A stretch of DNA of 64,000 bases from Candidatus Latescibacterota bacterium (GTDB taxonomy: Bacteria; Latescibacterota; UBA2968; UBA8231). Under the pieces are notes generated by a model. It worked only from the letters and a program-made list of their open reading frames with translations, had not been told where the DNA came from and made no database searches. Location of the stretch: contig OZ242214.1 of the NCBI GenBank assembly GCA_965206595.1, positions 384,001 to 448,000 on the forward strand, read 5' to 3'. The position numbers and the translations under genes were made by a program. This document shows, one piece after another, positions 7,188 to 54,435 of the stretch (position 1 is its first letter; each line of letters opens with the position of its first letter).

Positions 7188-7193
7188 AAGGAC

Positions 7194-18180: not shown

Positions 18181-18182
18181 GG

Positions 18183-23277: not shown

Positions 23278-23339
23278 AGCGGGGCAGCAGAGCGAAGCTG
23301 ATGCAAGATACCTCTGACTCGCCGGCGGTTGGATGGAGC

Positions 23340-23456
23340 CTATCGTCCTGTCCCAGGAATATTTTGAATAAATATGGTTTCCTCATTAGGTTCCTGTCTA
23401 GCGATATCGCAAGGAGGGAACCTATGCCAATGGGACGTCCCCTGAAGCCGCTCTGA
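23340..23456 (+). mobile_element. Possible IS630-type 5' remnant
   Basis: Strong RBS aaggagg followed by MPMGRPLKPL*, resembling the start of IS630 transposases; abruptly truncated. Confidence 0.35.
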
Positions 23457-23529
23457 AAGGGATCAGGAACTTCCTGAATCCTGCGTCCAGAGACTATAGA
23501 AGAGTTTGCGGGATACGTCTAATAAAAAT

Positions 23530-24750: not shown

Positions 24751-24828
24751 TCCTTTTTCGAAAAACCCTCCCTATCGAATCTGTACTGCTCCACTCCGTT
24801 CCCCTCGCCTGAGGCCGGGAATCGGGGT

Positions 24829-39200: not shown

Positions 39201-39988
39201 GGGGAATTATATAGATAACTACGCAAGCGCAACTTTCGTAAACCCATCCGCGAATTTAAAGAAAATCTGGTATAATATAGTAGAGAAAATACCAGAGAGA
39301 AGGACATCCAGGTCCTCAAGTGTTTAGCCCGGAAACTCGGAAGCATGTCAGATTGACACCACGGGTTAAGCCGCTGGGGTGAGGAATCATTCCGTTTGGT
39401 TGACAAGTTCACAAAGCAAACTGAATCTAATTGCTGGGTCGGCGTGCGATACTGCCGGGAGGCAACTGGCAGCAGGTTGTCATCTTGCTGACCATTCGGA
39501 AGGATTCTCTGCTTCCCAGGTGCAGCCTGATCTTTATGCGCAAGACGGGTATTCTCCTTCGGAGAATACTGACGGGACGCAGGGGGCAGCGGTTGTCACC
39601 TTGCTGACTTTTCGGAAGGATTCGCCCTCCCTCCACCGATGATGAGTGAAGGGAGTCGGAGGGACCTCCGTCTCCACAAGATCCCGGTGCGTTAGCCGTT
39701 TCTTCATCATCCGCGCCGTCAAATACCTCATCTGCTCCTCGGAGTCCAGGTGGCGGATATTGTACCTGCCTGCGAACTCGTTGAGGTATCGGGGCAAATA
39801 CTTCGGAGATACGTGGCGATACCCGTGATAGGTTCCTTTCGCCAGAGCATTAAACGATTCCGCACGGTTCGTTCCGGGGCGGCTCTGACGTATTCACCTT
39901 TTTTGTGGTTTACGGATTCGTGCCTGCTGGCCCATCCGAAATCGGAATAGGAACTGAACTCGTCGCTGTATAGGATTCCATTCTTTTT

Positions 39989-41452
39989 GGCTATATCCGG
40001 GTTTTTCAAAGGACATTTTATAGCATGTACAGAGAGAGATATTGAGTGATTCACACGGTACGGAATCGGGCCGGAATCTGCGCAGGGATATCGAGGTCTC
40101 CGACGCACAGGTAAATGAGGTCGGCAAAGGCATCCAGAGATTTAAATCCACTGGCTCGATTCTTGACCATGCGGATGATTCGATTGAGCCCTTCGGCGGC
40201 GGCGTTGGTCAGGTGCGTGTCGACGAAGGCCGTGATGCCGGCCGCATGCTTGCGCACCGTGTTGACGAACCTGCGCAGGGGCTCCAGGCGGCTGCGCAGG
40301 GCCGCCGTCGTCCACTTCTTGAGGAAGCGTTCGGCGGCCCAGCGCGCCTTGTAGCGCCAGAAGTGCTCGAACTCGTCCTTCAGGCGCCAGGCGCGGTAGA
40401 TGCGGCGGTTGGCCTTCTCCAGGGTTTGGAGCGTGCGCCGGTCCTTTGGCGAGCGCCGGGCGGAGTGATGCAGCAGCACCCAGCGCAGGCCCTTGAGCAG
40501 CTTGCGGTCCTCGCCGCAGGCTTGCCGCCACTGTTCCTTGCGCACCTCGTCGACGGCTTCGTTGAGGGCCTTGACGACGTGGAATCGGTCCAGGACGAGC
40601 TGGGCGTTGGGGCCGTGCTGGCGGATGGCGCCGATGAAGGTCTCGCTCATATCGCAGCAGGCCCAGCGGATACGGGCCTTCCGGAAGGCGCTGAGATGGT
40701 CCCGGAAGAACGTATCGATCGTTTCGCGGGCCTTGCCCTTGCCGATCCAGACGACACAGGAGCGCTCCAGGTCGTAGACCAGGGTGGCGTATTTATGGCC
40801 CTTGGCGTAGGAGATCTCGTCGATGCCGAGGGTCGTCAGCGCGCGGATGCGATGGCCTGTACGCCGGCGCTCGATGAGCCGGTGCACCTGGTCGGACAGG
40901 GTCGAAGGAGCCAGGCCCAGCAAGCGCGCGGCGGTGACCTGCGGCATCCACTGGCAGTAGGTCAGCAGCAGGTATTCGAAGCGGTAGCTGACCCGGGCCG
41001 AGGGCGCTGCCCAGGGCACCTCCTCGACGTGCCGGCCGTGGGTCGGACAGCGGATCTCTCGAGGGCGGTGGTACAACCAGACGGTACGGCCGCAAATGCG
41101 GACGTCGCGCCAGCGGCGGGGCTCCATGACCTGTACGATCTTGCCCCGGCGCCCACACTCGGGACACCGGCACCCGTTCCTTTGGGGCTTCACCGCGACC
41201 ACGACGGCCGCTTCCTCCCCGTGTCCTTCGAACCACACGCCCACAGCGCCAAACCCCTTGAACTTGAACAGCTTGGAGACGAACTTCATAGCGGTCATAG
41301 GTCGCCTTCCCTTCCCTTTCCTGGGGAGTGCTTGATGGGGATACACCAAGCATAGGGAACGACCTATGGCCTTGTCATGTACTCAGATGAACAGCAAGGG
41401 CTCAGGTACTTTCCGTACTTACGTTTCGGCGTTGAAAAACCCGGATAGACCC
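39989..41452 (-). mobile_element. ISL3-family IS, apparently intact
   Basis: IRs GGCTATATCCGGGTTTTTCAA / TTGAAAAACCCGGATAGACCC; 8-bp TSD TTCTTTTT at 39981-39988 and 41453-41460. Confidence 0.95.
40051..41298 (-). CDS. ISL3 family transposase
   Basis: CPECG, GIDE, CDM, DRFHV, TNAAAEGLN motifs; start codon uncertain. Confidence 0.93.
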   Translation of the reverse strand: MTAMKFVSKLFKFKGFGAVGVWFEGHGEEAAVVVAVKPQRNGCRCPECGRRGKIVQVMEPRRWRDVRICGRTVWLYHRPREIRCPTHGRHVEEVPWAAPSARVSYRFEYLLLTYCQWMPQVTAARLLGLAPSTLSDQVHRLIERRRTGHRIRALTTLGIDEISYAKGHKYATLVYDLERSCVVWIGKGKARETIDTFFRDHLSAFRKARIRWACCDMSETFIGAIRQHGPNAQLVLDRFHVVKALNEAVDEVRKEQWRQACGEDRKLLKGLRWVLLHHSARRSPKDRRTLQTLEKANRRIYRAWRLKDEFEHFWRYKARWAAERFLKKWTTAALRSRLEPLRRFVNTVRKHAAGITAFVDTHLTNAAAEGLNRIIRMVKNRASGFKSLDAFADLIYLCVGDLDIPAQIPARFRTV

Positions 41453-42590
41453 TTCTTTTTCAGGTTTTTCCTTACGATGGGGAGCAAGGTCTTGCCCTTC
41501 CTGTCGGGGGTCACCTCGGTGGCTACCCTGCCGGTTTCCCGGCAGCATACTACGACCCCGATACTCACGCCCTTCTGCCAGTTGCCGTCAAACTTCTTGT
41601 TGAGGTGCCTGTTTTTATCCTTTCCCCCGAAAAAGGTTTCGTCTATTTCAACGGCGCTGCTGTTGAGGCTTTCCTGTTCTCCCCACCCTTCCCGGATGCG
41701 ATGCAGCATGAACAATGCCGACGAATACGCAAGGCCGAGGTCGCGGGCAAGCTGCCTGGCGCTGATTCCCTTCGGGCGGGACAGGTGCAGGTGGATGCCG
41801 ATGGCCCATATCTGCAAGGGGATCTTGGAGTGAGACATCACCGTTTTCGTGCGAACGCTGAATCGCTTTCGGCAGTCGCCGCACCAATACGGCTGGGGTT
41901 TGCGGTTAGGGCATTCCGTTATCATGCCGTAGCAGCCCCAATGCGGGCAGTGTATGTTGACGGGAAGGCCGTCTACCGTCTTCCCCCATCTGAGTTCTTC
42001 AAACCATTTTTCCGCTGTTTCATCATCTGGAAACATTCTGAATAATTCGATTAAGGATAAACTTTTACCATTCTTCACTCCGATTACCTTCGGGCCGTGG
42101 AATACCGAACTTGAGACCAGCGGCCCTCATAAAATATTGTGATTCACGCTCCCATAGGATTCCTTTCGGTTAGTGGGATGGTGACTCTGTCGGTGTTCGC
42201 CGACAGAAGGGACTGAGGAAGCGGCAGCGGATGCTGAGGGCTTCCTCTTCGAATTACCATTATTGTACCTGGATTTTCTAAAAAAAAAATCGGCTTGCAG
42301 GAAATTTCCATAAAGCTCGTAACGGCGAGGGCGAACTTTAGTTTCTGGAAGCGGGAGAGGGGGTGTGGCAGGGGAGGCAAGGAGGTCGGCGGTGGATGCA
42401 GGAAGGCCTGATTCAAGGGGGGATGAGCATCCAGACGGTTCCTTCAGGAGCTGGAGCCGGGGTGTGGCTTTTGCGGGGTAGGTCCTGGGGGGAGGGGATT
42501 GCGGGGCTGCAAGCCCGGTGTCGCTGGAGGTCTCAGTCCGGATCGGCGTTACCTAAAAAGGATTCAGGAACTGCGGGTCGAGGTGGCGCT

Positions 42591-42752
42591 GAGGGATACG
42601 ACCTGGTGCTTCGCCGACGAGGGAATCTTCATCCCTTTGGAGAAACGTCTGCTATCAGCGCCGCTACATGAACGGCATGACCCAGCTGCGCGGCCTGAAC
42701 AACTACCCCGAGCAGGAGGCGAGTATCAGGGAATTACCATCAACTGTGTACA
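42591..42752 (+). repeat. Direct repeat type A, copy 1
   Basis: Shares CTGAACAACTACCCCGAGCAGG (22/22) and TCAGGGAATTACCATCA with 44039..44214. Confidence 0.85.
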
Positions 42753-42771
42753 TCCATAGGACTATCGAAAC

Positions 42772-43569
42772 CTACCTGAACCTACCAGCGGCTTCCCGTA
42801 ATTCAAAGATGTTATTCATCTGTTCCGCGTTTGGTCTACGTCCGATCTTACCTAAGAAATCGCTCGCAACATCGGAATCGGTGATAGGCGTATCGCCACT
42901 GGGGTCGATTGCTGAGTCGATATACTGCACTGCCTTTGCGAGCTGCTTGGTATGGGCTATAAATGCTCCGGCCCTCGGTTCAATAACAACCTTGTTCCCT
43001 ATCTGTGAGTCGAGCAACCTTATGCTGATGTAGTTCAAAACTGAATGAATTTCGTCCAAGGCGTTCCCCACTTTTTCAATGCTTGCAGAAGCCAAGGGTT
43101 CAGGATTGGGTCCTATTACTCGGGAAAGGTCAGTATGAGCGATGACTCTGTTTCTCCAGTCACGCGCAAATTCTCCAGATTCAATCGCAGTATTGACGCG
43201 ACTACTCACTTCGCAATGCAATTCTGCATCTTCGCAAAGCTCCGGCAGCTTCAAGATGGTAAGATTGTCCTTTCCCTTGCCGCTACTAACAGGGTCGGTC
43301 AACTTGCTCACGAGCAGTATTAGATTCTCCCAGAATACCCACTGAACATGCAAAAGAAATCCACCCATAATTGCTCTTAGAGGTTTGGCATCCTCAGCCC
43401 TGGTGAGTATCCGAAGCTCTCTGATTGTTATTGTTCCCCAACACCAGTTATTTACCAAGGCATGAAATATTGTCCCGAATTCTACCCCGAGCTTATCCTG
43501 GTACTCTTGCTTTACTTCAGACGAACTTCTTTGTCGCCTCTCTGTCATTTTCCATCTTCCTTTTGCCAT
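42772..43569 (-). CDS. HEPN domain protein (AbiU2-like)
   Basis: ILLVSKLTD...NLTI and RNRVIAH (Rx4-6H) motif. Confidence 0.7.
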   Translation of the reverse strand: MAKGRWKMTERRQRSSSEVKQEYQDKLGVEFGTIFHALVNNWCWGTITIRELRILTRAEDAKPLRAIMGGFLLHVQWVFWENLILLVSKLTDPVSSGKGKDNLTILKLPELCEDAELHCEVSSRVNTAIESGEFARDWRNRVIAHTDLSRVIGPNPEPLASASIEKVGNALDEIHSVLNYISIRLLDSQIGNKVVIEPRAGAFIAHTKQLAKAVQYIDSAIDPSGDTPITDSDVASDFLGKIGRRPNAEQMNNIFELREAAGRFR

Positions 43570-43791
43570 CTTCTGTTCTCATTGGGGAAGCATTCAAATC
43601 GTATCACTTCTGGTTTCCCCTGTTCCAGTTGCACTTCCTGTTTCATTTTCATGGCTTGTAGGGGGCGTATTTCTTCGCCGCGGTATTGCAGCCGACGAAC
43701 AGAACCCCTGCGATGAGAAGATTCACTGCCTCTCTGTCATTCCTTCACCGGAACATCGACATCGACTTCGATCTTGGCGCGCGCCTTGACC

Positions 43792-43986
43792 TCATAGGGT
43801 GGACGCTCCAACGACTTCTTTCTCAAGGGTCACCGTCGTGGCCGTAGAATCCCCAATCGTAGTCACCGGCGATCCGGGCTCCTCGTCCCAAGGATCTTTG
43901 TCGTCGGGCGGATTGATCAGGTCCCAACCCGACAGAAGGATGGCCGTGGCGAAGATGGTGGCCTGGAGCAGCGTGAAGACAGTCAT
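43792..43986 (-). pseudogene. Small degenerate secreted/lipoprotein-like ORF
   Basis: Hydrophobic N-terminus ending LLSGW (lipobox with C replaced by W); RBS gaggaaagag. Confidence 0.4.
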
Positions 43987-44038
43987 AATACTCTTTCCTC
44001 AAGGGTTTCAAGCGAAACTTCCAGCACAATCGCCACTG

Positions 44039-44214
44039 GAAGGATTCGATCTGGCGGTGCTGTTCTCAACGGCAAGGCGAGGATATCGGCATCCCCTTGA
44101 GCGGAACGGACCTCAATCAGAGGTCGCCAACAGGAACGGCATGAATCACGCTGCGCGAACTGAACAACTACCCCGAGCAGGGGGTGAGTGTCAGGGAATT
44201 ACCATCACTGTACA
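44039..44214 (+). repeat. Direct repeat type A, copy 2
   Basis: Homologous to 42591..42752; ends ~10 bp from the stop codon of the convergent gene. Confidence 0.85.
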
Positions 44215-44223
44215 CTCTTGCAT

Positions 44224-44991
44224 TCAGTCCTCCTTCATTTTTCTCAGGTCAACAATTTGATCTACAGTCAATTCCTTTTCTATGGAATTGCAGATCTCAA
44301 CCATGCGAGATTGAAATGGCGAAAGAGGGCCTTTCTTATCCTCTCTCCACCTCAAGTGAAGAAGATATCCCAAGCAATCTGGCAATACACCACCAGGTAA
44401 ATTCTTGGCATAGAAAGATACGTCCCCAATTTTGCTATGATCAATTGACATATCCCCAGGAGATAAAAATTCGCTCATCCATTGATTGCTCACCGTGTTT
44501 CTCTGGAAAATAAAATATTGTAGGGGGGAATCGTCTCTTTCCATGAAGTAATGGAATAGATGATCAGATCTGGCAGAAGCCTTTAGTCCCATAAAGCACA
44601 TGGGAATCAACCATTCTTTTTCAAAGTTGATGTAGCTCTGTTTGCGACAATTATGGAATAACTCCTCCGCCCTTTCGTTTCTCCGATATCCAATTCGGAC
44701 AATAGGTATCTTCATTTCATTAATTATTGACGCCAGCCCTTCCATGAATTTAAACTTCGTTTTATCAGGCTCGTCAGGGAATAACTCGCATGCGTGTACT
44801 TCGGGAAGGCTGGGAATATGGTTACGAGGCGATGGGAATAAATCTCTGAGAAGAGAAAAGTATTTTTTCCTGAAAGGCACAATCTGAGTTGCCATGAGAT
44901 ATACGCCAGTCAGTGCAGTTACTTGGTTTTTCCTGGATTCGGTATGATCCGCATACTTTTCGTCAAGATAAACATGAACAGATTCAACCAT
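44224..44991 (-). CDS. DUF3800-like protein
   Basis: VYLDE N-terminal motif, EVHACEL, late LPDCLGY motif; ggagg RBS. Confidence 0.6.
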   Translation of the reverse strand: MVESVHVYLDEKYADHTESRKNQVTALTGVYLMATQIVPFRKKYFSLLRDLFPSPRNHIPSLPEVHACELFPDEPDKTKFKFMEGLASIINEMKIPIVRIGYRRNERAEELFHNCRKQSYINFEKEWLIPMCFMGLKASARSDHLFHYFMERDDSPLQYFIFQRNTVSNQWMSEFLSPGDMSIDHSKIGDVSFYAKNLPGGVLPDCLGYLLHLRWREDKKGPLSPFQSRMVEICNSIEKELTVDQIVDLRKMKED

Positions 44992-45068
44992 CTAGAGTAA
45001 CCTCCAGGAGAAAAAATGGAACCTTACAGAGATTATCATCACTGTACAGATCATCCTTCTCCGGTTAT

Positions 45069-45962
45069 CTATCTGTAGTTCGGAATCTCCAACCTTCCCT
45101 CTTGCACCTTCACGAGATACTGGAAGAAGTTTTCTCGATCATACCCCCTCATAAACTTGCAAATCTTGCGTAGCTCACCAGGAATCTGGTCACGAGAAAT
45201 TCCAGGATGAGGTGAGTTACCAGGATGTAGAAATCGTATGGCATACTCGACATTCTCGGTTATCAGGCGACTGATTCCAGAGTATATGCTCTGAAAACGA
45301 TCTTTTCTTCCCCCTTGGCCTTCCATAAGAGTGTTGGCCATTTCAAACATCTCTTCGTGCAGGGCACGACAGAGCCTTCTGGTGACATTCGGATACTCTA
45401 CCTCATCCTTCAACCTAATGAACTCATCTTCCAGGATGTATCTGATTCCTCTCGCTACTTCCAGCATCGCGCCAATGCTCACCTTCGGTTGTCTTGCACT
45501 GTCCTCGGGAAAGCCCTCAAGGAGGAAATACCTCCAAGTAGTATATCCATCCTGTCTTCCTCCATCTCCCCGAGCACCCACGTCAAGTTGATCGAGAAAA
45601 GGTTTCAACGTACGAAGAGGAATGTAGCTGTGCAGTTCAACGTACCCCTCGTACGTTCGATCCAGAGTTTCCTTGTGTTTTTCGCTCAGCTTTTCATACA
45701 GCCTGCTCAACCGATGTCCCCAACCGGATTTACCTGTATGGAACTGGATGAGTAGCTTCAGTCCCTGCTCTATGGCGGAATATGCCGACGGGACCCACAC
45801 CCACCCCTGAATCCCTTCATAGTCAGGTGCCATGTCAGGGGCTACCCCACCAGACTTATTGTACATTTTTGAGAGCGCGCTGATGGCCTCGGCAGTTCTC
45901 ATGTACGCAGGTCTCAAATGGTTGTCACTCGGCATTGCCGTTGCCTTCTCCCCTTCAGTCAT
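45069..45962 (-). CDS. Hypothetical protein with a HEPN-like helical motif
   Basis: AYSAIEQGLKLL...GHRLSRLY resembles the HEPN ExxLK...H.L..L pattern; start uncertain. Confidence 0.5.
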   Translation of the reverse strand: MTEGEKATAMPSDNHLRPAYMRTAEAISALSKMYNKSGGVAPDMAPDYEGIQGWVWVPSAYSAIEQGLKLLIQFHTGKSGWGHRLSRLYEKLSEKHKETLDRTYEGYVELHSYIPLRTLKPFLDQLDVGARGDGGRQDGYTTWRYFLLEGFPEDSARQPKVSIGAMLEVARGIRYILEDEFIRLKDEVEYPNVTRRLCRALHEEMFEMANTLMEGQGGRKDRFQSIYSGISRLITENVEYAIRFLHPGNSPHPGISRDQIPGELRKICKFMRGYDRENFFQYLVKVQEGRLEIPNYR

Positions 45963-46606
45963 TGGACAGTTCTCCCAATGTCCAGTACACAGTTTCCCCA
46001 TCTTTCGGAAGCCGTAGAGCCTGTCGCGTACTGCTTGCCTGAGCAAGTAGAATCTGGAAGCAGTCCATGAGATCGTCAGGAACTCCTCGACAAAAAGCTG
46101 CGCGAGGCCGAGAACTAGAGAACGCCGAGCTGGACCGGGAAAGCGACCGGCTCAAGTGCCTGTATAATGCGACGGTAGAATACCGATCAAAAGCGCGATT
46201 TTTCCGATTATCTGGTATAACCTAATAGAAAGCATTTATCCCCTCACCTCCAGGACTGCATCCCACCGAATCACGGTTTCCAACTTCGCAAGTACCGCCG
46301 ACAAAGGCGACCCGGGAACCGGCTTTTCCTTCCGTGGTTCCCCGTTTCCCTAAATCTCATATCACGCTGAGTCCATACCGACCCTTCTTGCAGACAACAG
46401 CATAGTAGTGAGTTGACGCAGTTGCCGCTACCGATTCGCTGAATTCTGCCACGGGGTTCTTCTCCGAATCCCGATCCTGCCGGAACCCGAATACCTGTCA
46501 ACACCCTGCCCGTCAGGCTGTCTCAAGGCGAGGTCAGGGCCGGTCTGTGTCCTTCTGTCTGATGGTGGCCACCGATAATCACCTCCCTGAAAAAAGGAGA
46601 ATAAAG

Positions 46607-46813
46607 ATGACGCAAGATCAGCTGAAAAGGGCCAGAGACGCCCTTGGCATGAAGCAGTGGGAGCTGGGCATCGCCCTCGGTGTCAGTGAGGCCGAAGTGT
46701 GCCTGTGGGAGAAGGGGAAGCGAACGATGCCGGAAAGGTATCTCCGTCTCATGGGAGCGATCATCCATCACCAGGAAAATGGCTTACGCCTGTCCTACAA
46801 AGCTGGGTCGTAA
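46607..46813 (+). CDS. XRE-family HTH protein
   Basis: LKRARDALGMKQWELGIALGVSEAEVCLWEKG; RBS aaggag; mostly synonymous differences from the second copy. Confidence 0.85.
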   Translation: MTQDQLKRARDALGMKQWELGIALGVSEAEVCLWEKGKRTMPERYLRLMGAIIHHQENGLRLSYKAGS

Positions 46814-46816
46814 AAG

Positions 46817-46969
46817 ATGGTTTTCAAGCCGGTCTGCTGTAAATGCGGCCAGGAAATCAGGCCCTATCACCTGTTCTATATGCCCACCCCCGGCGAGTAC
46901 CTATGCATCCCGTGCAGCGAGAAGGAAGACCCCGAAGAGGAAAAGAAAACTGCCGACGATGACGGATAG
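46817..46969 (+). CDS. 50-aa C4 zinc-finger protein with acidic tail
   Basis: CCKC...CIPC; frame and length conserved in copy 2; below the ORF-track size cut-off. Confidence 0.65.
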   Translation: MVFKPVCCKCGQEIRPYHLFYMPTPGEYLCIPCSEKEDPEEEKKTADDDG

Positions 46970-47202
46970 TTTGTGGGCAGGGGAAATCGAGTAGGTTGGA
47001 ACGGCAATTTGTCCGTCTGTTGAACTATGCCCCCCGAGCGTAGTCCCTTGAGCCGGAAAGAGAGCTCCTGCATTTTGCCGATTCGCAAAGACCCGCCTTT
47101 CGGTTCCCTCTGCCAATTTTCTCCCCCACCTCTCCGGGACAGGCGATTTCCATTCATATACTATCAGGATTGCTCTTAGAAGATTGTTCATCGATTGCCT
47201 CT

Positions 47203-49539
47203 CTATCGGAGTAATAGAAGGCGTTGTGATTGCTTCCCTCCAGAGTAGGTTAGTCGGACAAAGTAAACTCCTGATGCCTGATCCCTGGCATCCCAGGAAG
47301 TTATATAAGAACCAGCTGGGTGCGCCCGACTAACCAAGGTGTTCACCTGTTGCCCCAGAATATTAAACACGCCGAGGGATACCATACCGGGCTCTGACAA
47401 GCGGTATGGTATCTGTATCTGATTGTTGAATGGATTTGGGTATGGTTGCAGCAGCACTGACTTTATTGGATACTGCCCCGTAGTCTCGATGGCAGTTGGA
47501 ATCTTTTCTATCTGACGACTCCATATCTGACCCTGGTGGCCCACAACTATCAGTCGATTTCCAGCCCGATCCATTCGAGTAAGATAAGGGCCAAGTCCCT
47601 CACTGAAAACCGCCTCTTCTACCCAGTTTCTTCCTCCATCAGTTGTATGCAATATACGATCACCGGCAACCCATCCAGTTTTTTCATCCAAAAAAAACAC
47701 ACTGTTAAGCACATAATTTCGAGCAAAATCCCTATTGTATCCCCAGAGGCCCCTATATCCATCTTCTGTGGAAGTATATTGTACAGAAAGGTGCTCCCGT
47801 TCAATCCTATAAATTATTTCTCCGCTACCTCCGGCCCATGCTGATCCGGTCTCAAACCCAAAAACACCACCGAGAATACCACCGGCACTCCAAGCCGATC
47901 CAGTTATTCGATTCCAGGATTCCCCTCGGTCTCTGGTTTGAAAAATCATAGCCCCATCGTCCCAATCGGTTGATCCCGTTTGTTCAGTAAACCCCCCTAC
48001 AATCCATCCCCAATTGCCAGAAAAATAAAAATCTCTGAAATGTACCCATCCACAGCAGTTCAACCGCTCACAGATTCTCTCTCGACATTCCCCATCGGTT
48101 CCTTTGTAGTCTTCAGGAAGTTCCAGTTCCACCTCTTCCCAGGAAAGCCCTCCATTAATGGTGTGAAAAAGATGCTTGTTTGCTATTATCCAGCCTTCAG
48201 ATTGGCTATGAAAATAAACCCGTCGAGGACTTCCCCCTCTGTACTTCTCTGGCAGAGGGAGGTTATCATAGATGATGCTCCAGGTAGTTCCTCCATCTTG
48301 CGTTTTAACCAGATTTTGACCTTGAACCATCAGTCCGTTATCCCTATCCCAAAACCAAACCGCAGAGCCTCCCTCCGTACTTACCTGCCTCCAGGTATTC
48401 CCGCCATCTTCGGTTTTTAAAACTCCTTCATAGCCCACAGCCCACCCGGTTTGGCCGTCAACAAGCCTCAAATCAAAAAGGTCCCAGGATACAGTACTGC
48501 GGTGAATCTGCCAATCTTCGGGGACTGCAATCGATAGATTTTCATCGGGTTGGACAAACTCTGTAGTAGTAATTTGAGACGACAAATCCCACAGATAGAT
48601 ATTTCCACCCTCATAGGCTCCTCCATTAGCCATAATGGTTCCGTCTGGAGAAAATGCCACAATATCAAGTTCCCCAGACTTCTCAAACTTCATGCTGCCA
48701 AGCATTGTTCCGGATACTACATCCCACAACTGTAGTTCTCTGTAGCCTACCTTTACAGCTGCAATAGATCCGTTGGGAGAAAGGACAGATTGGCCATAAT
48801 CATAATGCCCGAACAAGTGGCCGATTATCTGCCCGCTGGGAAACTCTCGGATGCGGACAATTCCTCTTGTGTTAATGGTAACAATTGTTGAGCCGTCGGG
48901 GTTTATGACATACGAAGTAATCTCATCTGCCCCATCTTCCCCCTTAAACGAAGATATCTTTTCTCCGGTTTCTGCACTTGTTACATAAATTCCTCCTCCA
49001 TAACTTTGTTTGATTAACACTTTTCCGGTTGGATCAAAAGTAATACGTCCTGAATAATGAACACCACCCCAATCCTCCGAAGGAAATACTTCTTCAAGTT
49101 CCGTCATATCCCATACTCGTAGCGGTGCAGAATACCCAACACTTGCCAATACAGATCCATCAGGGGAAAACGCCAAGTCTCTTATACTACCGTCATCCTT
49201 GCTTAGGGAGTCCAGTAGGTCTCCGCTCTCCACATCCCAAAGATGAATGCGAGCTCCTTTATGTTCTCTCCACGGTTTTTCACTCCCGCTGGCCAGAGTG
49301 GCTCCATCAGGAGAAAACTCCAATGTGTTTACAAAAGGTTGAGATATGACAACCATCTCTGTGGAACTGGCTATATCCCATATCCGTATTCCATCCCGGT
49401 GGCTGCTGGCCATCAGTCGAGAGTCCTGTGAGATAACAAGGTCAGAAACGTCAGCCGGTGTCTCCAATTGAAAAACATCTTGACCCTGAACACTTACCAC
49501 CGAAAAACTCAGGGATAGAACTAACCCAAGCTTATTCAT
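47203..49539 (-). CDS. Secreted WD40 + YCF48/BNR-repeat protein with T9SS-like tail
   Basis: Signal peptide, FSPDG repeats, TxDGGxxW repeats, YPNPFN...ASGVYF. Confidence 0.85.
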   Translation of the reverse strand: MNKLGLVLSLSFSVVSVQGQDVFQLETPADVSDLVISQDSRLMASSHRDGIRIWDIASSTEMVVISQPFVNTLEFSPDGATLASGSEKPWREHKGARIHLWDVESGDLLDSLSKDDGSIRDLAFSPDGSVLASVGYSAPLRVWDMTELEEVFPSEDWGGVHYSGRITFDPTGKVLIKQSYGGGIYVTSAETGEKISSFKGEDGADEITSYVINPDGSTIVTINTRGIVRIREFPSGQIIGHLFGHYDYGQSVLSPNGSIAAVKVGYRELQLWDVVSGTMLGSMKFEKSGELDIVAFSPDGTIMANGGAYEGGNIYLWDLSSQITTTEFVQPDENLSIAVPEDWQIHRSTVSWDLFDLRLVDGQTGWAVGYEGVLKTEDGGNTWRQVSTEGGSAVWFWDRDNGLMVQGQNLVKTQDGGTTWSIIYDNLPLPEKYRGGSPRRVYFHSQSEGWIIANKHLFHTINGGLSWEEVELELPEDYKGTDGECRERICERLNCCGWVHFRDFYFSGNWGWIVGGFTEQTGSTDWDDGAMIFQTRDRGESWNRITGSAWSAGGILGGVFGFETGSAWAGGSGEIIYRIEREHLSVQYTSTEDGYRGLWGYNRDFARNYVLNSVFFLDEKTGWVAGDRILHTTDGGRNWVEEAVFSEGLGPYLTRMDRAGNRLIVVGHQGQIWSRQIEKIPTAIETTGQYPIKSVLLQPYPNPFNNQIQIPYRLSEPGMVSLGVFNILGQQVNTLVSRAHPAGSYITSWDARDQASGVYFVRLTYSGGKQSQRLLLLR

Positions 49540-49553
49540 TTTGAAAACTCCTG

Positions 49554-49730
49554 CTATGAGTCTGTGAGAACCTCTCGACCGATGACCATAAGTCCAGGAT
49601 TCAAAATGGATATTTCATTGATAAGCCAACCCTGAAGACGGCTTTCCAGATCCAACGGCACCGATTGCACTTGTAGCAAATGGGTTTCTACCGGGGAGTC
49701 TACTTTCCAAAGCTGTATTTCATCCGGCAT
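49554..49730 (-). pseudogene. N-terminal remnant of a NucS/DUF91-like endonuclease
   Basis: MPDEIQLWKV...LDLESRLQGWL...ILNPGLMVIGREVLT* stops just before the expected IDLL..ELK catalytic motifs. Confidence 0.55.
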
Positions 49731-50294
49731 TCAATTCGCACTCTTCAGTTAGAGAATCCCTGACTCTTCGTCGGCCAAAGCCTGTAGCCGCCTTCCCTGA
49801 CCTGGAAGGCCGTTTTCCTCGTTCTCCCTTGTGGTTGCGTTTTATCAGATCCGCGATTTTACGAAAAATCTGGTATAATATAATAGAGCAAGAATTTATT
49901 CCCCTCCCTGCAAGACCTGCAACTGCGCGTCTTCCGCGATCCGAAGGACTTCATCCGAACCACGGTCTCTAACTCCGCCAGCACCGCCGACAAAGGCGAC
50001 CCGGGAACCGGCCTTTTCCTTCCGTGGTTCCCCGTTTCCCTAAATCTCATATCACGCTGAGTCCATACGACCCTTCTTGCAGACAACAGCATAGTAGTGA
50101 GTTGACGCAGTTGCCGCTACCGATTCGCTGAATTCTGCCACGGGGTTCTTCTCGGAATCCCGATCCTGCCGAAACCCGAATACCTGTCAACACCCGGTCC
50201 CGTCAGGCTGTCTCGGGGCCGGTGCAGGGCAGTTCTGTGTCCTTCTGTCTGTCGGTAGTCACCGACAATCACCCCTGAAAAATGGAGAATGAAA

Positions 50295-50501
50295 ATGACG
50301 CAAGATCAGCTGAAAAGGGCGAGAGACGCCCTTGGCATGAAGCAGTGGGAGCTGGGCATCGCCCTTGGAGTCAGTGAAGCCGAAGTGTGCCTGTGGGAGA
50401 AGGGGAAGCGAACGATGCCGGAAAGGTATCTCCGTCTCATGGGAGCGGTCATCCACCACCAGGAAAATGGCTTACGCCTGTCCTACAAATCTGGGTCGTA
50501 A
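50295..50501 (+). CDS. XRE-family HTH protein (copy 2)
   Basis: 66/68 aa identical to 46607..46813. Confidence 0.85.
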   Translation: MTQDQLKRARDALGMKQWELGIALGVSEAEVCLWEKGKRTMPERYLRLMGAVIHHQENGLRLSYKSGS

Positions 50502-50503
50502 AG

Positions 50504-50656
50504 ATGGTTTTCAAGCCGGTCTGCTGTGTATGCGGCCAGGAAATCAGGCCATATCACCTGTTCTATATGCCCACCCCCGGCAGGCACCTATGCATCCCCT
50601 GCAGCGAGAAGGAAGATCCCGAAGAAGAAAAGAGAACTGCCGACGATGGCGGATAG
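50504..50656 (+). CDS. 50-aa C4 zinc-finger protein (copy 2)
   Basis: CCVC...CIPC; all cysteines conserved. Confidence 0.65.
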   Translation: MVFKPVCCVCGQEIRPYHLFYMPTPGRHLCIPCSEKEDPEEEKRTADDGG

Positions 50657-51032
50657 TTTGTGGGCAGGGGAAATCGAGTAGGTTGGGAGGCAATGGGCTG
50701 AAGCCTCTTTTCCGTCTGTTGAACTATGCCCCACGAGCGTAGTCCCTTTGAGCCGGAAAGAGAACTCCCGCATTTTGCCGATTCGTCAAGACCCGCCTTT
50801 CGGTTCCCTCTGCCACTAATCCACTCACCTCGCCGGGATAGGCGATTTCCCATATCCCTCACAGACCTAACCAACGGCTGAAGGCCATCGGCATCACCAA
50901 GAGCACGGCCCCATCGAAGGAGGCGGATCTAAGAGCAATACGAAATGTCCCAAATTGGTTGTCACGAGCTCCGTGAACGAAAGAAAATAATATACCTAAC
51001 TTGGTGATAACTCGCTTCCTTTTGGCACTGTT

Positions 51033-51353
51033 TCAGTCTGAAATCTCGAAAGAGGCCCACAGGTTCATCGTGCTTATACTGTTGGCCAGCTCAAGGGAGG
51101 CAATCTGGATATCGAAACCGCTGGTATTGCGTAGGGTGATCTCCCACGCTCCGGTAACATCGAACCCTTCGTCCGTTTCCCTGCTGGACAAGAAACGCCA
51201 GCGGGTATCTGCCTCGATGGGGGAGCCTTCCCAAGACAGACCGTCTTCTTCGTGGGGTGCAGTGTTCAGGCGGACATCGTTCGACGGTTCGACAACATCG
51301 GGCTTGGAATTGCAGGCCAACAGCCCAATTAGACACAGAATTCCGGTTCTCAT
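51033..51353 (-). CDS. Lipoprotein, possibly truncated
   Basis: MRTGILCLIGLLAC lipobox. Confidence 0.55.
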   Translation of the reverse strand: MRTGILCLIGLLACNSKPDVVEPSNDVRLNTAPHEEDGLSWEGSPIEADTRWRFLSSRETDEGFDVTGAWEITLRNTSGFDIQIASLELANSISTMNLWASFEISD

Positions 51354-51367
51354 AAGCCGCCGGTCCC

Positions 51368-51821
51368 TTACTTGAGTCGTTGGTAGCGACCTCTTCCTAC
51401 GCGCTTGAGTTCGCCCAAGCTATTTGTGAGATGTACAATTATAATGTTGCTCAGGGTTCTATCGGGTGTACTTCGCCCAGATATGGTAGGGGAGGACAAG
51501 GTATCTCCCTCGACTGTAACGAGCAGGGTATCGCCCTCGATGGAGTAGGCGACTTCTCCCTCGAATCCGGCAACGAAACTATCTACCAAAGCCGGGCTGC
51601 GAGGGATCCCGAGGTTCTGGTAGAGGCTCCAGTTCTCCATCCGGACCAGCCGTAACTGTGACAGCGACTACCCGGTAAATCTCGTAGCTGTCTGCATCGG
51701 GAACAAGGGTCCATTCAAGATACACAAACCCCTCATCCTGTCCCTCTATCCATACAGAATCAGGAGCAGGAACACTCCATGCCGATTGAGCCAGTAGGAG
51801 CAGAAAGGCAAGGCGGGTCAT
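51368..51821 (-). pseudogene. Frameshifted secreted FN3-like protein remnant
   Basis: Signal peptide, LEW..VPDADSYEIYR; continues in another frame to NSLGELK (degenerate SWGxxK tail). Confidence 0.4.
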
Positions 51822-51869
51822 TCTACCTCTTCCTTCATTCATTCCAGATTTCAGACAAAGGAGCCTCAA

Positions 51870-52118
51870 ATGCCTTCAGAACTGCATCAACCTTCCCCAG
51901 CACTCGCAGTGATTGTCGGGGATGCACCGCTGTCCTGGGTGAAGATAGTCGAACTGGTAGGTGAATATATCAAGGTGAACAACCTGGAGGCGGAGCCGCC
52001 ATACATCGCCGTAGACGCCGCTCTACGGTCCCTGGTGGATCGGGGGGACAAGGTGTCCATGAACGAGCTTACAAGGGCGCTGAAGCGCCACATAACCCCA
52101 ACAGGAAGGAGTGTTTAG
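51870..52118 (+). CDS. Stand-alone SWIB/MDM2 domain protein
   Basis: PSPALAVIVG..LS......EYIK.NNL...I..DAALRSL...KVSMNELTRALKRH matches the SWIB consensus; aaggag RBS. Confidence 0.75.
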   Translation: MPSELHQPSPALAVIVGDAPLSWVKIVELVGEYIKVNNLEAEPPYIAVDAALRSLVDRGDKVSMNELTRALKRHITPTGRSV

Positions 52119-52236
52119 GAACTGCATAATCCGCGATAGCCCGGAAGCGAGATCCCATTATCCATGGAAAGAGCCATCCGCGACGACAAACCCCCTCCTG
52201 GAGCAAGGGAAACTCGTTCCGGTCCAAAACGCATCG

Positions 52237-53260
52237 CTACTCTCCTTTGCGTTTGATTTCTCCCCAACTTCGAAGCCTAACATTTGTAGGCTTATTGGGA
52301 GAGATAAATCTAAGTGAATAACCTGGAATTCTTGGGCCAGTTCTATGCTGGTATACGATTGCATCTCCAGCAGGGCTCCACTCGGGGCGGGAATTCCATT
52401 GTCCATCAAAGGTTATCTGACGTACTGTCTTAAGCCCTTCCCCCTCGGCAATAAACAATTCCCTTGTGCCATCCGACAGCTCTAAGTCGAAAGCTAAGCT
52501 TTTGCCGTCTGGAGACCAGGCCAGCCCCGAAAGACTTAATAATCCGTCCGCAACACGAATACTTTCTCCATTTTCGTTTTTTGCATAGATCCATCCTGTA
52601 TACTCACCCACGAAGTTTCCATACCAAGAGCATGCATACCGACCGTCGAGGGTCCAATCTACTGGACTGGAGCATGATTTACCACTTCCGTGAATTCTAC
52701 TTTCTGATTCCGGATTCAAAATAAATGCAGAGGTCCTCTCGGACATTCGCGGAGTCCAACCCTGTACACTGTAAACCGTTATCCCTAATGGTCCCCAATT
52801 TCCTACGCCGTAATCGTGATAGCCAAGTACAATTTCCCGAACATCTTCTCCGTTAATATCCCTGATGAATATAGAGAAAATATCCCAAAGGGTCTCATAT
52901 TCCTCTACATATCTCTCAGATGATTTTGATAAAGCATACTGAGTCCCATCTGGTGACCAGCCTAATAATAGGCCACCATCTGTATCAGCAATCCTACGCA
53001 GGTTGGAGCCGTCTGGCTGAACGATAAACACCTCGCCGAGATGCTGGTAAATAATTCTGTCATCGACAGGAGACCAGTCCGGCCTTATTCCAGGTCCGAG
53101 TAATACAGACTGTTCCGTATAGGCGTTTACTACAAACATATTTCCTAACGGATAGTTTGGATACACAAACCGATCTCCCTCTGGAGACCAGGATAGCCAT
53201 GCATCTACGGGCGCGGAGAGGACTACTGCCAATCCTAAAACAAAGGAGAATAAAATGCCC
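52237..53260 (-). CDS. TolB-like PD40-repeat protein with SWGEIK tail (start uncertain)
   Basis: Repeated WSPDG/WSP motifs; C-terminal RSWGEIK. Confidence 0.7.
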
Positions 53261-53473
53261 GACGAAGTAAACCTACCGAGCTGGGTAATCCGCCGCTGGG
53301 TTGTAGTGAAAGACGGATCGGTTTCCCGCTTTGAGACCTTGCCGGAAGCAACAGCACACAAGGAGGAGCACGGCGGAACCGTTCGTGAGCTGGAGTTTCG
53401 ACTATGCAGCGTCAAAACAGTTCCTCAGAACTACAAGCCTAATCAAGGCTGGATTAGGTGCGACGGGAAGTAG
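53255..53473 (+). CDS. Hypothetical protein
   Basis: Strong RBS aaaggagaataaaATG; co-oriented with radC. Confidence 0.45.
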   Translation: MPDEVNLPSWVIRRWVVVKDGSVSRFETLPEATAHKEEHGGTVRELEFRLCSVKTVPQNYKPNQGWIRCDGK

Positions 53474-53581
53474 CCTCCGAAAGAAGAAGGGGGAGGGTAT
53501 CTGTTGGGAGGGGGATGATGTTTGTACAGCAGTTAAGTACATGTACTACTACTTACTAACCCATTAGAAGAAAGGACTATT

Positions 53582-54019
53582 ATGAAACTCGAAGTCGTAG
53601 AACGAACCGTGAAGCAGATATGGCAAGACGTGTGCAGCGAGGCCCTTGTCGGCCCCGGCGATGTTATCGCCTACCTGGACAGCCTGGATTTCAGGGATTC
53701 GGACAGAGAGGTTTTCATTGTCCTGCACCTCGACGCTCGCAACCGCGTTACGGCGCACGAGATAACGTCTATCGGCAGTCAGACGGCATCCCTCGTGCAT
53801 CCGAGGGAGGTATTCAAGTCGGCAGTCCTGAAGGGAGCTAACGGCATTATCCTTGCCCATAATCACCCCAGCGGCGACCCTGCGCCGTCGAAGGAAGATA
53901 TCGACCTTACCCACAGACTGCAGGAAGCGGGGGGACTGCTTGGTATCGAGGTAATGGATCATATCGTCGTTGCCCCTCCTGATGGAAGCGTGTCCATGAA
54001 GGAGCTCGGGATTGTCTGA
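53582..54019 (+). CDS. radC: RadC/JAB domain protein (short, mobile-element type)
   Basis: DREVF, VHPREVF, AHNHPSGD..PS..D, DHIVV. Confidence 0.92.
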   Translation: MKLEVVERTVKQIWQDVCSEALVGPGDVIAYLDSLDFRDSDREVFIVLHLDARNRVTAHEITSIGSQTASLVHPREVFKSAVLKGANGIILAHNHPSGDPAPSKEDIDLTHRLQEAGGLLGIEVMDHIVVAPPDGSVSMKELGIV

Positions 54020-54435
54020 TTTGATTTCACCACGAGGAAGGACCCTCCGTACCAAATATCCGCCGACGATAGTGCTCAATTGAGCATTAGTTTCTGATAG
54101 GTAGTATCCCCTCCTCCACAAGTCAACAACCTCTTGCCCTCCGTGGATCGGTGATCGGCTCCCGAGTATCAGCCAGGACACCGGAAGGGTCGTGGCCCGG
54201 TTCAGCCATGCAGTATCGCGTGACCCTTGCCGAAAAACCAGGTCGGAAGTGCCGGCTCACCCGTGCAGTGTCAATGTCCGCAACGGGAGGCATCCTGGTA
54301 AAAAAGGACCGCCGGGTTACCGAGCAGCGCCCCCTTGTCCGTGAACGGCGGAAATCGAGAATCGGGCAGGGGAAGGACGAAAGCAGCGCCTTCGCCCCGT
54401 GAAACACAGACCGTTTCGAGGCGGACTGAGGTGCA

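What the first reader, a model, noticed from the sequence alone, without database searches (positions are those of the whole stretch)
46191..50853. Duplicated ~1 kb module (promoter, conserved non-coding core, HTH, C4 zinc finger, tail) abutting different cargo genes
Seen: 46191-47153 and 49849-50853 are direct repeats with the same order of parts: extended -10 promoter (TGgTATAA), ~380 nt leader, XRE HTH gene, 50-aa CxxC..CxxC gene and a ~185 nt tail. The HTH copies differ by 5 synonymous and 2 non-synonymous changes, so they look like maintained diverged copies rather than an assembly duplicate. Each tail is met head-on by an unrelated minus-strand gene (a WD40-YCF48 protein; a lipoprotein). 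The DNA left of each copy also differs (HEPN-like gene; NucS remnant). Inference: this is the backbone of an undescribed small integrative or cassette element that has integrated in tandem and swaps cargo, with the HTH and zinc finger as regulator and possible excision or directionality factor.
Basis: partly seen in the sequence, partly recalled or inferred. Interest (0 to 1): 0.8.

Follow-up and report, generated by a model that had tools for sequence, protein, structure and literature searches.

The report
Repeated regulatory head of mosaic islands
The two 1-kb repeats are real, diverged copies of a small repressor operon that heads a family of patchwork, probably mobile gene islands found in only one genus of uncultured Latescibacterota; it is a new variant of a familiar theme, not a new kind of element.

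Summary
46191-47153 and 49849-50853 are about 91% identical direct repeats with the parts described, and the HTH copies differ by 5 synonymous and 2 non-synonymous changes. Short-read contigs bridge every junction, so this is not misassembly.

The module is not a free-standing 1-kb cassette element. It has 6 copies in this genome and 5 and 7 in two congeneric genomes, and was found in 3 of 168 genomes of the phylum. In the 7-copy genome it always heads a roughly 5-kb backbone: HTH, one or two zinc ribbons, tail, two small ORFs, SWIB, small ORF, RadC, IS1595-type DDE transposase, 131-aa ORF. Window copy B heads a decayed backbone (SWIB, RadC). Copy A is a solo head.

Both genes are under purifying selection (dN/dS 0.13 and 0.17). 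A palindrome, GTCGGTG-NN-CACCGAC, lies about 45 nt before the HTH start and recurs before RadC/transposase units. I therefore read the HTH as a Cro-like repressor of itself and of the transposase.

No integrase, terminal inverted repeat or empty site was found, and mobility is not shown. Neither leader nor tail shows support for a structured RNA. Unrelated genes, often convergent, sit just after the tail. How they got there is unknown.

The parts
46096..46195 (+). Conserved stretch upstream of promoter A. It is a non-coding remnant (..RLKCL.. pseudo-ORF) shared with several copies in G001 and G002.
   Evidence: Alignment of the left flanks. Only short frames end here. nhmmer finds it only at the known copies.
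46194..46221 (+). Promoter A: CGCGATTTT..ATCTGGTATAAC, with an extended -10 at 46213-46221.
   Evidence: The 11-mer ATCTGGTATAA occurs 11 times in the genome. My own arithmetic from base composition expects about 0.5.
46222..46606 (+). Leader A (presumed 5' UTR). Its core is nearly identical to B's.
   Evidence: 171 of 174 identical over 46331-46500. No structure signal.
46543..46576 (+). Operator-like block of A: the direct repeat TCTGT..TTCTGT followed by a degenerate palindrome, GATGGTGGCCACCGAT.
   Evidence: The palindrome has 3 mismatches to GTCGGTGNNCACCGAC.
46607..46813 (+). HTH gene A: 68 aa, Cro/C2-like.
   Evidence: dN/dS is 0.127.
46817..46969 (+). Zinc-ribbon gene A: 50 aa, CxxCG..CxxC, acidic tail.
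   Evidence: dN/dS is 0.169.
46970..47153 (+). Tail A: non-coding, with a sharp end of homology.
   Evidence: Fold z-score is -0.64.
47203..49539 (-). Cargo gene convergent on tail A: a 778-aa WD40 protein with a T9SS sorting domain.
49554..49730 (-). 58-aa ORF remnant left of promoter B. The 'NucS' label is not confirmed.
49852..49879 (+). Promoter B: CGCGATTTT..ATCTGGTATAAT.
49880..50294 (+). Leader B.
50233..50266 (+). Operator-like block of B: TTCTGT-N5-TTCTGT followed by the palindrome GTCGGTAGTCACCGAC.
50295..50501 (+). HTH gene B.
50504..50656 (+). Zinc-ribbon gene B.
50657..50853 (+). Tail B.
51033..51353 (-). 106-aa lipoprotein-like ORF convergent on tail B.
   Evidence: No family hit.
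51870..52118 (+). SWIB-domain gene, part of the backbone downstream of B.
   Evidence: PF02201, E 2e-11.
53255..53473 (+). 72-aa ORF, a homologue of backbone ORFs D69 and D82.
53582..54019 (+). RadC-like JAB gene, the last backbone gene of the island.
   Evidence: PF04002, E 3.6e-40.
39448..42078 (-). IS1595-type DDE transposase unit, split by an unrelated multi-copy IS at 39989-41452.
42189..42204 (+). Operator-like palindrome GTCGGTGTTCGCCGAC (1 mismatch), upstream of the broken transposase gene.
39251..39290 (+). Second copy type of the same promoter motif, pointing into the 3' end of the transposase unit.

Best explanation
The repeat is the regulatory head of a genus-restricted family of mosaic, low-GC genomic islands in Candidatus Latescibacterota.

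The head consists of:
- a strong extended -10 promoter;
- an untranslated leader of about 390 nt;
- a 68-81-aa Cro/C2-type HTH protein;
- one or two tiny zinc-ribbon proteins;
- a tail of about 185 nt.

In the fullest copies the head is followed by two small ORFs, SWIB, another small ORF, RadC, an IS1595-type DDE transposase and a 131-aa ORF.

I propose that the HTH dimer binds the palindrome GTCGGTG-NN-CACCGAC. This palindrome lies about 45 nt before the HTH start codon and again before the RadC/transposase units. The HTH would then repress itself and keep the islands' transposases quiet, in cis and in trans, as an immunity-like function. That would explain why even solo heads stay under purifying selection.

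The copies diversify by recombination and gene conversion among themselves, and by gain of single genes just after the tail.

In the window, copy B heads a decayed backbone (SWIB, D82-like ORF, RadC; transposase lost). Copy A is a solo head with a WD40 cargo gene.

Shown: the repeat, copy numbers, selection, backbone synteny and the distribution of the palindrome.
Inferred: that the HTH binds the palindrome, that it represses, that the islands move by the DDE transposase, and how cargo enters.
For: Copy number and range:
- HTH matches number 6, 5 and 7 in G000, G001 and G002, which is 3 of 168 genomes of the phylum searched.
- By DNA, 4 of 61 relatives match, and the fourth shares only a 57-nt flank piece.
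- The 29 proteins found in the 5.8-billion-protein collection are all at least 81% identical and unnamed.

Selection:
- dN/dS is 0.127 for the HTH (15 copies) and 0.169 for zinc-ribbon residues 1-35 (12 copies).

Backbone:
- Collinear blocks from about 7510 to about 12465 of L039 are shared by the G002 copies. The right end falls within 10 nt in 5 copies.
- Gene identities are SWIB, RadC and DDE_Tnp_IS1595.
- Six of 7 G002 copies show RadC-transposase downstream, and the seventh plus 76.
- The window has SWIB, a D82-like ORF and RadC after copy B.

Operator-like palindrome:
- In G000 there are 26 sites with at most 1 mismatch in 7.05 Mb.
- Five are in HTH leaders and 6 are upstream of IS1595-type transposase or RadC units.
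- All 4 exact sites are in these elements.
- Six of 12 transposase hits have a site within 900 nt upstream, four of them about 54-56 nt before the estimated start.
- Sites also occur before the transposase in G002 (L072) and G001 (L077).

HTH type:
- The model has 4 helices and pLDDT 79.
- The nearest solved folds are Aca2, P22 C2, 434 Cro, R-M controller proteins and HigA2. All of these are small proteins known, from recall, to bind palindromic operators.
- PHROG transcription-regulator families match.

Island nature:
- Window 38-55 kb is about 50% GC against 64% for the genome.
- Window 36.8-55.7 kb corresponds to about 730 nt in G002 and to a different gene array in G001.

Recombination between copies is shown by mosaic identity.
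Against: - No binding or expression data exist. No RNA run was available.
- The palindrome lies about 350 nt downstream of the only recognisable promoter of the HTH operon, so simple promoter occlusion does not fit. A second promoter or a roadblock must be assumed.
- Copy A's palindrome is degenerate, with 3 mismatches.
- Six of 12 transposase hits have no site.
- Outside HTH leaders only 2 of 9 (G001) and 2 of 11 (G002) looser sites (GTCGGT-N4-ACCGAC) were seen next to element genes. With the leader sites the counts are 4 of 9 and 4 of 11. One G001 case rests on a p131-like match of 42% identity. Eight sites per genome were examined.
- The stem never covaries, so an RNA hairpin cannot be told apart from a DNA operator.
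- No terminal inverted repeats were found at the backbone ends, and no empty site. Mobility by the DDE transposase is therefore unproven, and the transposase may simply be an IS that rode along.
- Pfam HTH hits are below cut-off and Foldseek E-values are 0.05 or worse.
Confidence: 0.55

Rival explanations
1. One reading: the 1-kb module is the backbone of a small autonomous integrative or cassette element. It integrates in tandem and swaps cargo, with the HTH as regulator and the zinc ribbon as excision or directionality factor.
For: - Heads occur in pairs: A/B 3.7 kb apart, C/E 6.0 kb apart, F/D convergent, and G1b/G1a 1.95 kb apart.
- Homology ends sharply after the tail in 11 of 13 copies.
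- Unrelated convergent ORFs follow within 300 nt in at least 6 of 15 copies examined: A, C, F, G1a, G2e and G2f. These were called by a longest-ORF heuristic. Pfam hits were obtained for A, F and G2e. C and G2f gave no Pfam hit and G1a was not scanned.
- G002 has filled and empty forms of the slot, from 0-30 nt to 690-860 nt.
Against: - No tyrosine recombinase lies within 30 kb of the six copies, and the genome has no serine recombinase.
- No inverted or direct repeats mark the ends.
- Block boundaries elsewhere in the backbone coincide with stop codons and ribosome-binding sites. That fits homologous recombination between relatives.
- The module has constant downstream neighbours in 7 of 7 G002 copies.
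Confidence: 0.1
2. The HTH and zinc-ribbon pair is a controller or antitoxin-like regulator of the neighbouring defence genes. It would resemble R-M C-proteins, Aca proteins or a split MqsA, and would have nothing to do with transposition.
For: - The best NCBIfam hit is the HTH half of the MqsA family (TIGR03830, E 2.1e-6).
- MqsA is, from recall, a zinc ribbon fused to an HTH, and zinc-ribbon ORFs with CxxCG follow here.
- The fold neighbours include C-proteins, Aca2 and HigA2.
- Defence genes lie nearby: AbiU2, SIR2, HsdM, the PLD-helicase PbeA and a GmrSD_C nuclease.
Against: - The score is far below the family cut-off (27.6 against 61.8 bits).
- The neighbours differ at every copy and no conserved partner or toxin gene exists.
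- The conserved palindrome recurs before transposase and RadC units, not before the defence genes examined.
- Much cargo is not defence-related: WD40, amidohydrolase, ankyrin.
Confidence: 0.2
3. The conserved non-coding leader, the tail, or both are functional structured RNAs. An example would be RNA-based immunity as in satellite P4 (recalled). They would be the real reason for conservation.
For: - Between A and B the leader core is more alike (171 of 174) than the genes.
- The tail holds a hairpin, CTATGC-N7-GCGTAG, that tolerates G-U pairs and shows one compensatory change in copy G2g.
- The same promoter also drives a non-coding stretch with two 58-nt repeats beside the transposase.
Against: - RNAalifold on 14 leaders gives -2.75 kcal/mol, with 1 covarying pair of 12.
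- Single-sequence folds are no better than shuffles: z -0.30 and +0.63 for the leader strands and -0.64 for the tail.
- Rfam gives no match, even at E up to 1.
- The 5' half of the leader is replaced by unrelated sequence in other copies.
- The A-B identity is explained by gene conversion.
Confidence: 0.1
4. The duplication is an assembly artefact, for example two haplotypes joined.
For: The genome is a metagenome-assembled single contig with 4.5% estimated contamination. One run shows joints between A and B.
Against: - The copies differ by 9% and by indels.
- Independent short-read contigs bridge tail A through the WD40 gene into leader B (47033-50000) with 0 differences.
- Two other studies bridge the junction into promoter B.
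- The same tandem layout exists in G001.
Confidence: 0.02

Closest known systems
Cro/CI-type (XRE) repressors of temperate phages and transposable elements: 434 Cro, P22 C2
   Same: - Small 4-5-helix HTH.
- It sits at the head of an operon behind a strong promoter.
- An 18-bp palindrome with half-sites 10 bp apart lies near its own gene and near the element's recombinase gene.
   Different: - No lysogeny module, integrase or phage genes were seen, and there are no IMG/VR relatives.
- The recombinase is an IS1595-type DDE enzyme.
- The palindrome lies far downstream of the visible promoter.
- Pfam scores are below cut-off.
IS1595-family elements with passenger genes (ISNwi1/ISNha5-type, recalled from ISfinder; no paper read)
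   Same: A DDE_Tnp_IS1595 transposase with a zinc-ribbon N-terminus lies at one end of a multi-gene unit that occurs in several copies per genome.
   Different: - No terminal inverted repeats were found.
- Target duplications could not be checked, because no empty site was found.
- Heads and transposase units also occur apart.
MqsA-family antitoxins, R-M controller (C) proteins and Aca proteins
   Same: A small autoregulatory HTH with similar fold and sequence. CxxCG zinc ribbons are associated with it.
   Different: - The zinc ribbon is a separate downstream ORF, not an N-terminal domain.
- There is no conserved toxin, R-M or anti-CRISPR partner.
- The score is below the family cut-off.
Integron-like cassette platforms and defence-island hot spots
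   Same: There is a fixed platform with a slot where unrelated single genes sit, including nucleases. Empty and filled forms of the slot exist.
   Different: - No IntI-type recombinase lies nearby.
- No attC-like repeats were seen at the boundaries.
- The cargo is convergent on the platform promoter, not downstream of it in the same sense.

Membership tests
XRE / Cro-CI HTH (Pfam HTH_3, HTH_31) | Sequence match above the Pfam gathering score | tested here: not met
   HTH_31 scores 22.2 bits against a cut-off of 27, and HTH_3 scores 16.4 against 23. The longer G002 form scores 20.4 and 19.6 bits.
XRE / Cro-CI HTH (Pfam HTH_3, HTH_31) | Helical HTH fold like 434 Cro or P22 C2 | tested here: inconclusive
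   The AlphaFold2 model has pLDDT 79 and 4 helices. The Foldseek top hits are all of this class, with probability 0.9-1.0, but E is 0.05 or worse and TMq is 0.47-0.64.
XRE / Cro-CI HTH (Pfam HTH_3, HTH_31) | Palindromic operator near its own gene | tested here: met
   A palindrome with at most 1 mismatch lies in 5 of 6 G000 leaders, about 45 nt before the start. Binding was not tested.
MqsA-family antitoxin (TIGR03830) | Score above the NCBIfam cut-off | tested here: not met
   27.6 bits against a cut-off of 61.8. Only model positions 65-121 of 127 are matched.
MqsA-family antitoxin (TIGR03830) | N-terminal CxxCG zinc ribbon fused to the HTH | tested here: not met
   The zinc ribbons are separate ORFs downstream of the HTH.
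MqsA-family antitoxin (TIGR03830) | Conserved toxin gene next to it | tested here: not met
   The upstream and downstream neighbours differ among the 15 copies examined.
IS1595-family transposon with passenger genes | DDE_Tnp_IS1595 transposase within the unit | tested here: met
   PF12762 matches at E 2.7e-33 in L039. It is present downstream of 7 of 7 G002 heads. In the window only a broken copy exists, on the other side of the island.
IS1595-family transposon with passenger genes | Terminal inverted repeats at both ends | tested here: not met
   No inverted match links the left and right ends in 4 copies. No inverted-repeat pair listed in L039:7300-12700 lies at both ends of the backbone or of the transposase unit. 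The 25 longest of 38 pairs were shown.
IS1595-family transposon with passenger genes | Target-site duplication, or an empty site in a relative | tested here: inconclusive
   The flanks of the G002 and G001 elements have no collinear counterpart in G000.
Integron / gene-cassette array | IntI-type tyrosine recombinase beside the platform | tested here: not met
   PF00589 gives 13 matches in G000, none within 30 kb of the six copies.
Integron / gene-cassette array | attC-type imperfect inverted repeats at cassette boundaries | tested here: inconclusive
   No shared repeat was seen at the boundaries. No dedicated attC model was run.
Prophage or ICE | Integrase, and structural or transfer genes | tested here: inconclusive
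   No integrase lies near the window copies. The HTH has no relatives in IMG/VR. Capsid and T4SS families were not searched in the islands.
Known RNA families (Rfam 15) | Covariance-model match in the leader or tail | tested here: not met
   There are 0 matches at gathering score in the whole window and 0 at E up to 1 in 38500-55000.

The most novel reading that the evidence does not exclude
The heads are docking platforms of an undescribed gene-capture system without an integrase. In this reading, single genes are inserted, usually convergently, at one precise point a few bases after ...ACAGGCG at the end of the tail. The inserted genes include secreted eukaryote-like repeat proteins and defence nucleases. 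Insertion would be carried out by an enzyme acting in trans, perhaps the IS1595-type DDE protein, whose expression the HTH controls through the shared palindrome. The evidence does not exclude this. The break point is sharp in 11 of 13 copies, and filled and empty slots exist in G002. Cargo is unrelated among copies, apart from a shared start of the inserts in G2a and G2e.
Probability: 0.15. Interest if true: 0.75.

Novelty: new variant of a known kind. Interest (0 to 1): 0.4.

Why it matters
Latescibacterota are uncultured and their mobile DNA is essentially undescribed. My searches for 'Latescibacteria' plus 'mobile genetic elements' and for 'Latescibacterota' plus 'transposase' listed 13 and 2 papers. 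None is about such elements, judging by title and abstract start only.

This family gives a concrete, testable unit for that phylum:
- an orphan repressor with a defined candidate operator;
- an orphan zinc-ribbon family, with 16 representatives among 1.84 billion;
- a slot where secreted repeat proteins and defence genes accumulate.

If the repressor does silence IS1595-type transposases in trans, solo heads would be retained 'immunity' genes. That would be a useful model of how genomes tame transposons. If not, the finding is an ordinary mosaic island with a duplicated regulator.

Tried and rejected
1. Structured RNA in the leader or tail. RNAalifold, single folds against shuffles and Rfam give no support.
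2. HTH and zinc-ribbon complex. Complex prediction gave 'no answer' (score 0.02). This counts neither way.
3. Expression. No RNA holder was listed. This counts neither way.
4. Circle or deletion junctions. The joints 46974->50663, 49878->46607 and 45479->49852 occur in one run only, with sides of 26-58 letters, at 90% likeness and from contigs. Other copies or graph paths through shared 31-mers can explain them, so I did not use them.
5. Terminal inverted repeats of the 5-kb backbone or of the transposase unit. None found.
6. A shared 'junction element' between units. I thought the 82-nt repeats flanking AbiU2 resembled the stretch upstream of promoter A. The alignment is unconvincing and nhmmer finds only the input copies, so I dropped the idea.
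7. Empty sites. The flanks of the G002 and G001 elements have no collinear match in G000.
8. Phage origin. The HTH has no relatives in IMG/VR.
9. Labels for the left-hand neighbours. The 325-aa and 255-aa ORFs are unassigned in Pfam, NCBIfam, PHROGs and PADLOC, and the 58-aa ORF in Pfam, NCBIfam and PHROGs. The Atlas gives only weak leads.
11. Papers. I saw search listings only and read no paper or supplement. What I say about IS1595 passenger genes, MqsA, P4 and C-proteins is recalled.
Full report
**1. Observation**

The two stretches are collinear direct repeats. The repeat finder reports six main blocks of 79-97% identity at a spacing of 3687-3700 nt, plus the promoter block at 77%. A pairwise alignment shows homology from about 46186/49844 to about 47153/50853, with unrelated DNA on both sides.

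- TGGTATAAC and TGGTATAAT extended -10 motifs at 46213-46221 and 49871-49879;
- leaders of about 385 and 415 nt;
- a 68-aa HTH ORF (46607-46813; 50295-50501);
- a 50-aa ORF with CxxCG and CxxC (46817-46969; 50504-50656);
- a conserved tail.

The HTH copies differ by 2 non-synonymous and 5 synonymous changes, exactly as stated.

The arrangement is not an assembly artefact. Contigs of run X1 cover 44000-46352, 47033-50000 and 50657-54471 without a difference. Contigs from two other studies bridge 49507-50153 and 49744-50180.

I could not confirm the labels 'YCF48', 'HEPN-like' and 'NucS remnant'.

**2. A multi-copy, genus-restricted family**

The window is G000:C1:384001-448000, from a single 7.05-Mb contig with mean GC 0.64. 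Window 38-55 kb is about 50% GC.

The genome holds six copies:
- A and B in the window;
- C and E at 295 and 289 kb;
- F and D at 2758 and 2762 kb.

Two genomes of the same genus have 5 and 7 HTH matches. No other genome among the 168 of the phylum searched has one. By DNA, 4 of 61 relatives match, the fourth only over a 57-nt flank piece. Record titles name the relatives as Candidatus Latescibacterota MAGs.

The large protein collection holds only 29 relatives of the HTH, all at least 81% identical and unnamed. A profile of the zinc ribbon finds 16 representatives among 1.84 billion. IMG/VR has no relative of the HTH.

Both genes are under purifying selection: dN/dS is 0.127 for the HTH and 0.169 for the zinc ribbon core. 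One G001 copy, G1a, is frameshifted.

**3. The module is the head of a longer backbone**

In G002 the similarity among copies does not stop at the tail. Collinear blocks run from about 7510 to about 12465 of locus L039, and the right end falls within 10 nt in five copies.

The genes, in order:
- HTH;
- a second 73-aa zinc ribbon (absent from A and B);
- the 50-aa zinc ribbon;
- the tail;
- a 69-aa ORF and a 90-aa ORF;
- SWIB (PF02201);
- an 82-aa ORF;
- RadC (PF04002);
- an IS1595-type DDE transposase (PF12762);
- a 131-aa ORF followed by a hairpin and a T-run.

All 7 G002 heads have RadC and the transposase downstream in the same orientation. Six show this and the seventh.

In the window, copy B is followed by SWIB (51870-52118), a homologue of the 82-aa ORF (53255-53473) and RadC (53582-54019). 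The island then ends. An IS1595-type transposase gene lies at the other end of the island (39448-42078, minus strand) and is split by an unrelated multi-copy IS. Copy A has no backbone behind it.

SWIB-D82-RadC-transposase blocks also occur without a head, for example at 6047-6050 kb.

The whole stretch 36.8-55.7 kb of the window corresponds to about 730 nt in G002 and to a different gene array in G001, so the locus is variable.

**4. Variation**

Between the conserved blocks lie variable inserts at three junctions: just after the tail, around SWIB, and between RadC and the transposase.

Most block boundaries coincide with stop codons and ribosome-binding sites. That is what recombination among diverged relatives produces.

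The break after the tail is sharp in 11 of 13 copies. Within 300 nt of it, at least 6 of 15 copies carry a convergent ORF, called by a longest-ORF heuristic. Known cargo includes:
- a WD40 protein with a T9SS tail (A);
- an amidohydrolase (between F and D);
- a GmrSD_C/Excalibur nuclease (G2e).

The convergent ORFs after C and G2f gave no Pfam hit, and the one after G1a was not scanned.

Nearby genes include AbiU2, SIR2, HsdM, the PLD-helicase PbeA and ankyrin-repeat proteins.

Copies exchange sequence. A and B are 171/174 identical in the leader core, yet B is closer to C a few dozen bases further on. B also shares indels with C and G1b that A lacks. This gene conversion explains why the 'non-coding core' looked more conserved than the genes.

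**5. Candidate operator**

The most invariant non-coding stretch, shared even by copies with unrelated leaders, lies just before the ribosome-binding site of the HTH. It consists of GTTCTGTGCC(C)TTCTGTC followed by the palindrome GTCGGTG-NN-CACCGAC.

In G000:
- There are 26 sites with at most one mismatch in the whole genome.
- Five are in HTH leaders.
- Six are upstream of IS1595-type transposase or RadC-transposase units.
- All four exact sites belong to these two classes.
- The other 15 lie in high-GC host DNA.
- Six of 12 transposase hits have a site within 900 nt upstream, four of them 54-56 nt before the estimated start.

In the window these sites are 42189-42204 (transposase, 1 mismatch), 50251-50266 (B, 1 mismatch) and 46561-46576 (A, 3 mismatches).

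The looser pattern GTCGGT-N4-ACCGAC occurs 9 and 11 times in G001 and G002, against 0 and 1 for the reversed control. Of the 8 sites examined in each genome, 4 lie at element genes, among them sites before the transposase (L072, L077).

The HTH model is a four-helix bundle with pLDDT 79. Its nearest solved folds are Aca2, P22 C2, 434 Cro, R-M controller proteins and HigA2, although at E of 0.05 or worse. The best curated family hit is the HTH half of MqsA, below its cut-off.

From this I infer, but have not shown, that the HTH binds the palindrome and represses both itself and the transposase units. The same promoter motif also recurs: the 11-mer ATCTGGTATAA occurs 11 times, against about 0.5 expected by my own arithmetic. 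Five of these point into the 3' end of transposase units.

**6. What was not found**

- No tyrosine recombinase within 30 kb of the six copies, and no serine recombinase in the genome.
- No terminal inverted repeats.
- No empty site.
- No Rfam family.
- No consensus RNA structure and no fold better than shuffles.

Mobility is therefore inferred only from copy number, low GC, the variable locus and the transposase.

**7. Verdict**

It is wrong in its core claim that the 1-kb module is itself a small integrative element.

The best reading is a Cro-like repressor operon that heads, and probably controls, a mosaic island family carrying an IS1595-type transposase. This is a new variant of a known kind, in a phylum where such elements have not been described in the papers my searches listed.

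Noticed in passing
window 39989-46216 (= genome 423989-430216) and genome 89371-95598: A 6.2-kb segment is duplicated at 99.98% identity. It carries an IS, the 5' part of the IS1595-type transposase, AbiU2, two unassigned ORFs and the first half of promoter A. The second copy ends inside the -10 motif (TGGT|ATAA), where a different, high-GC transposase-like sequence begins.
   Followed up: partly
window 39989-41452: A 1465-nt insertion sequence with at least a dozen copies of 96-100% identity across the genome. The 437-aa plus-strand ORF has no Pfam hit. It splits the IS1595-type transposase gene.
   Followed up: partly
window 39202-39660: A non-coding stretch downstream of the transposase gene. 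It has the same promoter motif pointing back into the gene, and two direct repeats of about 58 nt (39449-39507 and 39566-39623). The first 200 nt are repeated at at least 7 other places in the genome. It may be an antisense or small-RNA unit.
   Followed up: partly
window 42666-42747 and 44130-44211: 82-nt direct repeats (88% identical) flank the AbiU2 gene. In two other studies, contigs diverge from the window exactly at 44214/44215 (loose ends), so this is a recombination junction between strains.
   Followed up: partly
genome 2742-2755 kb (outside the window): Four IS1595-type transposase units, all on the minus strand, lie about 4 kb apart. They are followed by heads F and D, which converge on one amidohydrolase gene.
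   Followed up: no
window 36841-39159(-) and 54563-55570(-): The genes bordering the island belong to large paralogous families, with many copies in all three genomes. One is a WD40 plus Big_1 protein and the other a reprolysin-like metallopeptidase. In G001 the same locus holds an array of them.
   Followed up: partly
window 18000-26000: A second low-GC stretch (0.51-0.60 against about 0.70 around it). I did not examine it.
   Followed up: no
L034 (G001:C10:932000-947000), oriented 7000-8643: Here a head without the usual leader sits between a D69-like ORF and an IS1595-type transposase gene that starts about 120 nt after the HTH. In this copy repressor and transposase are direct neighbours.
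   Followed up: no
L037, L041 (inserts after the tail) and L039, L040 (leaders): A short sequence, ..TTCACTC(A/C)CAGACCCA(A/C/T)CCG.., recurs both in the 5' half of some leaders and at the start of the inserts after the tails of G2a and G2e. It may be a small repeated element.
   Followed up: no
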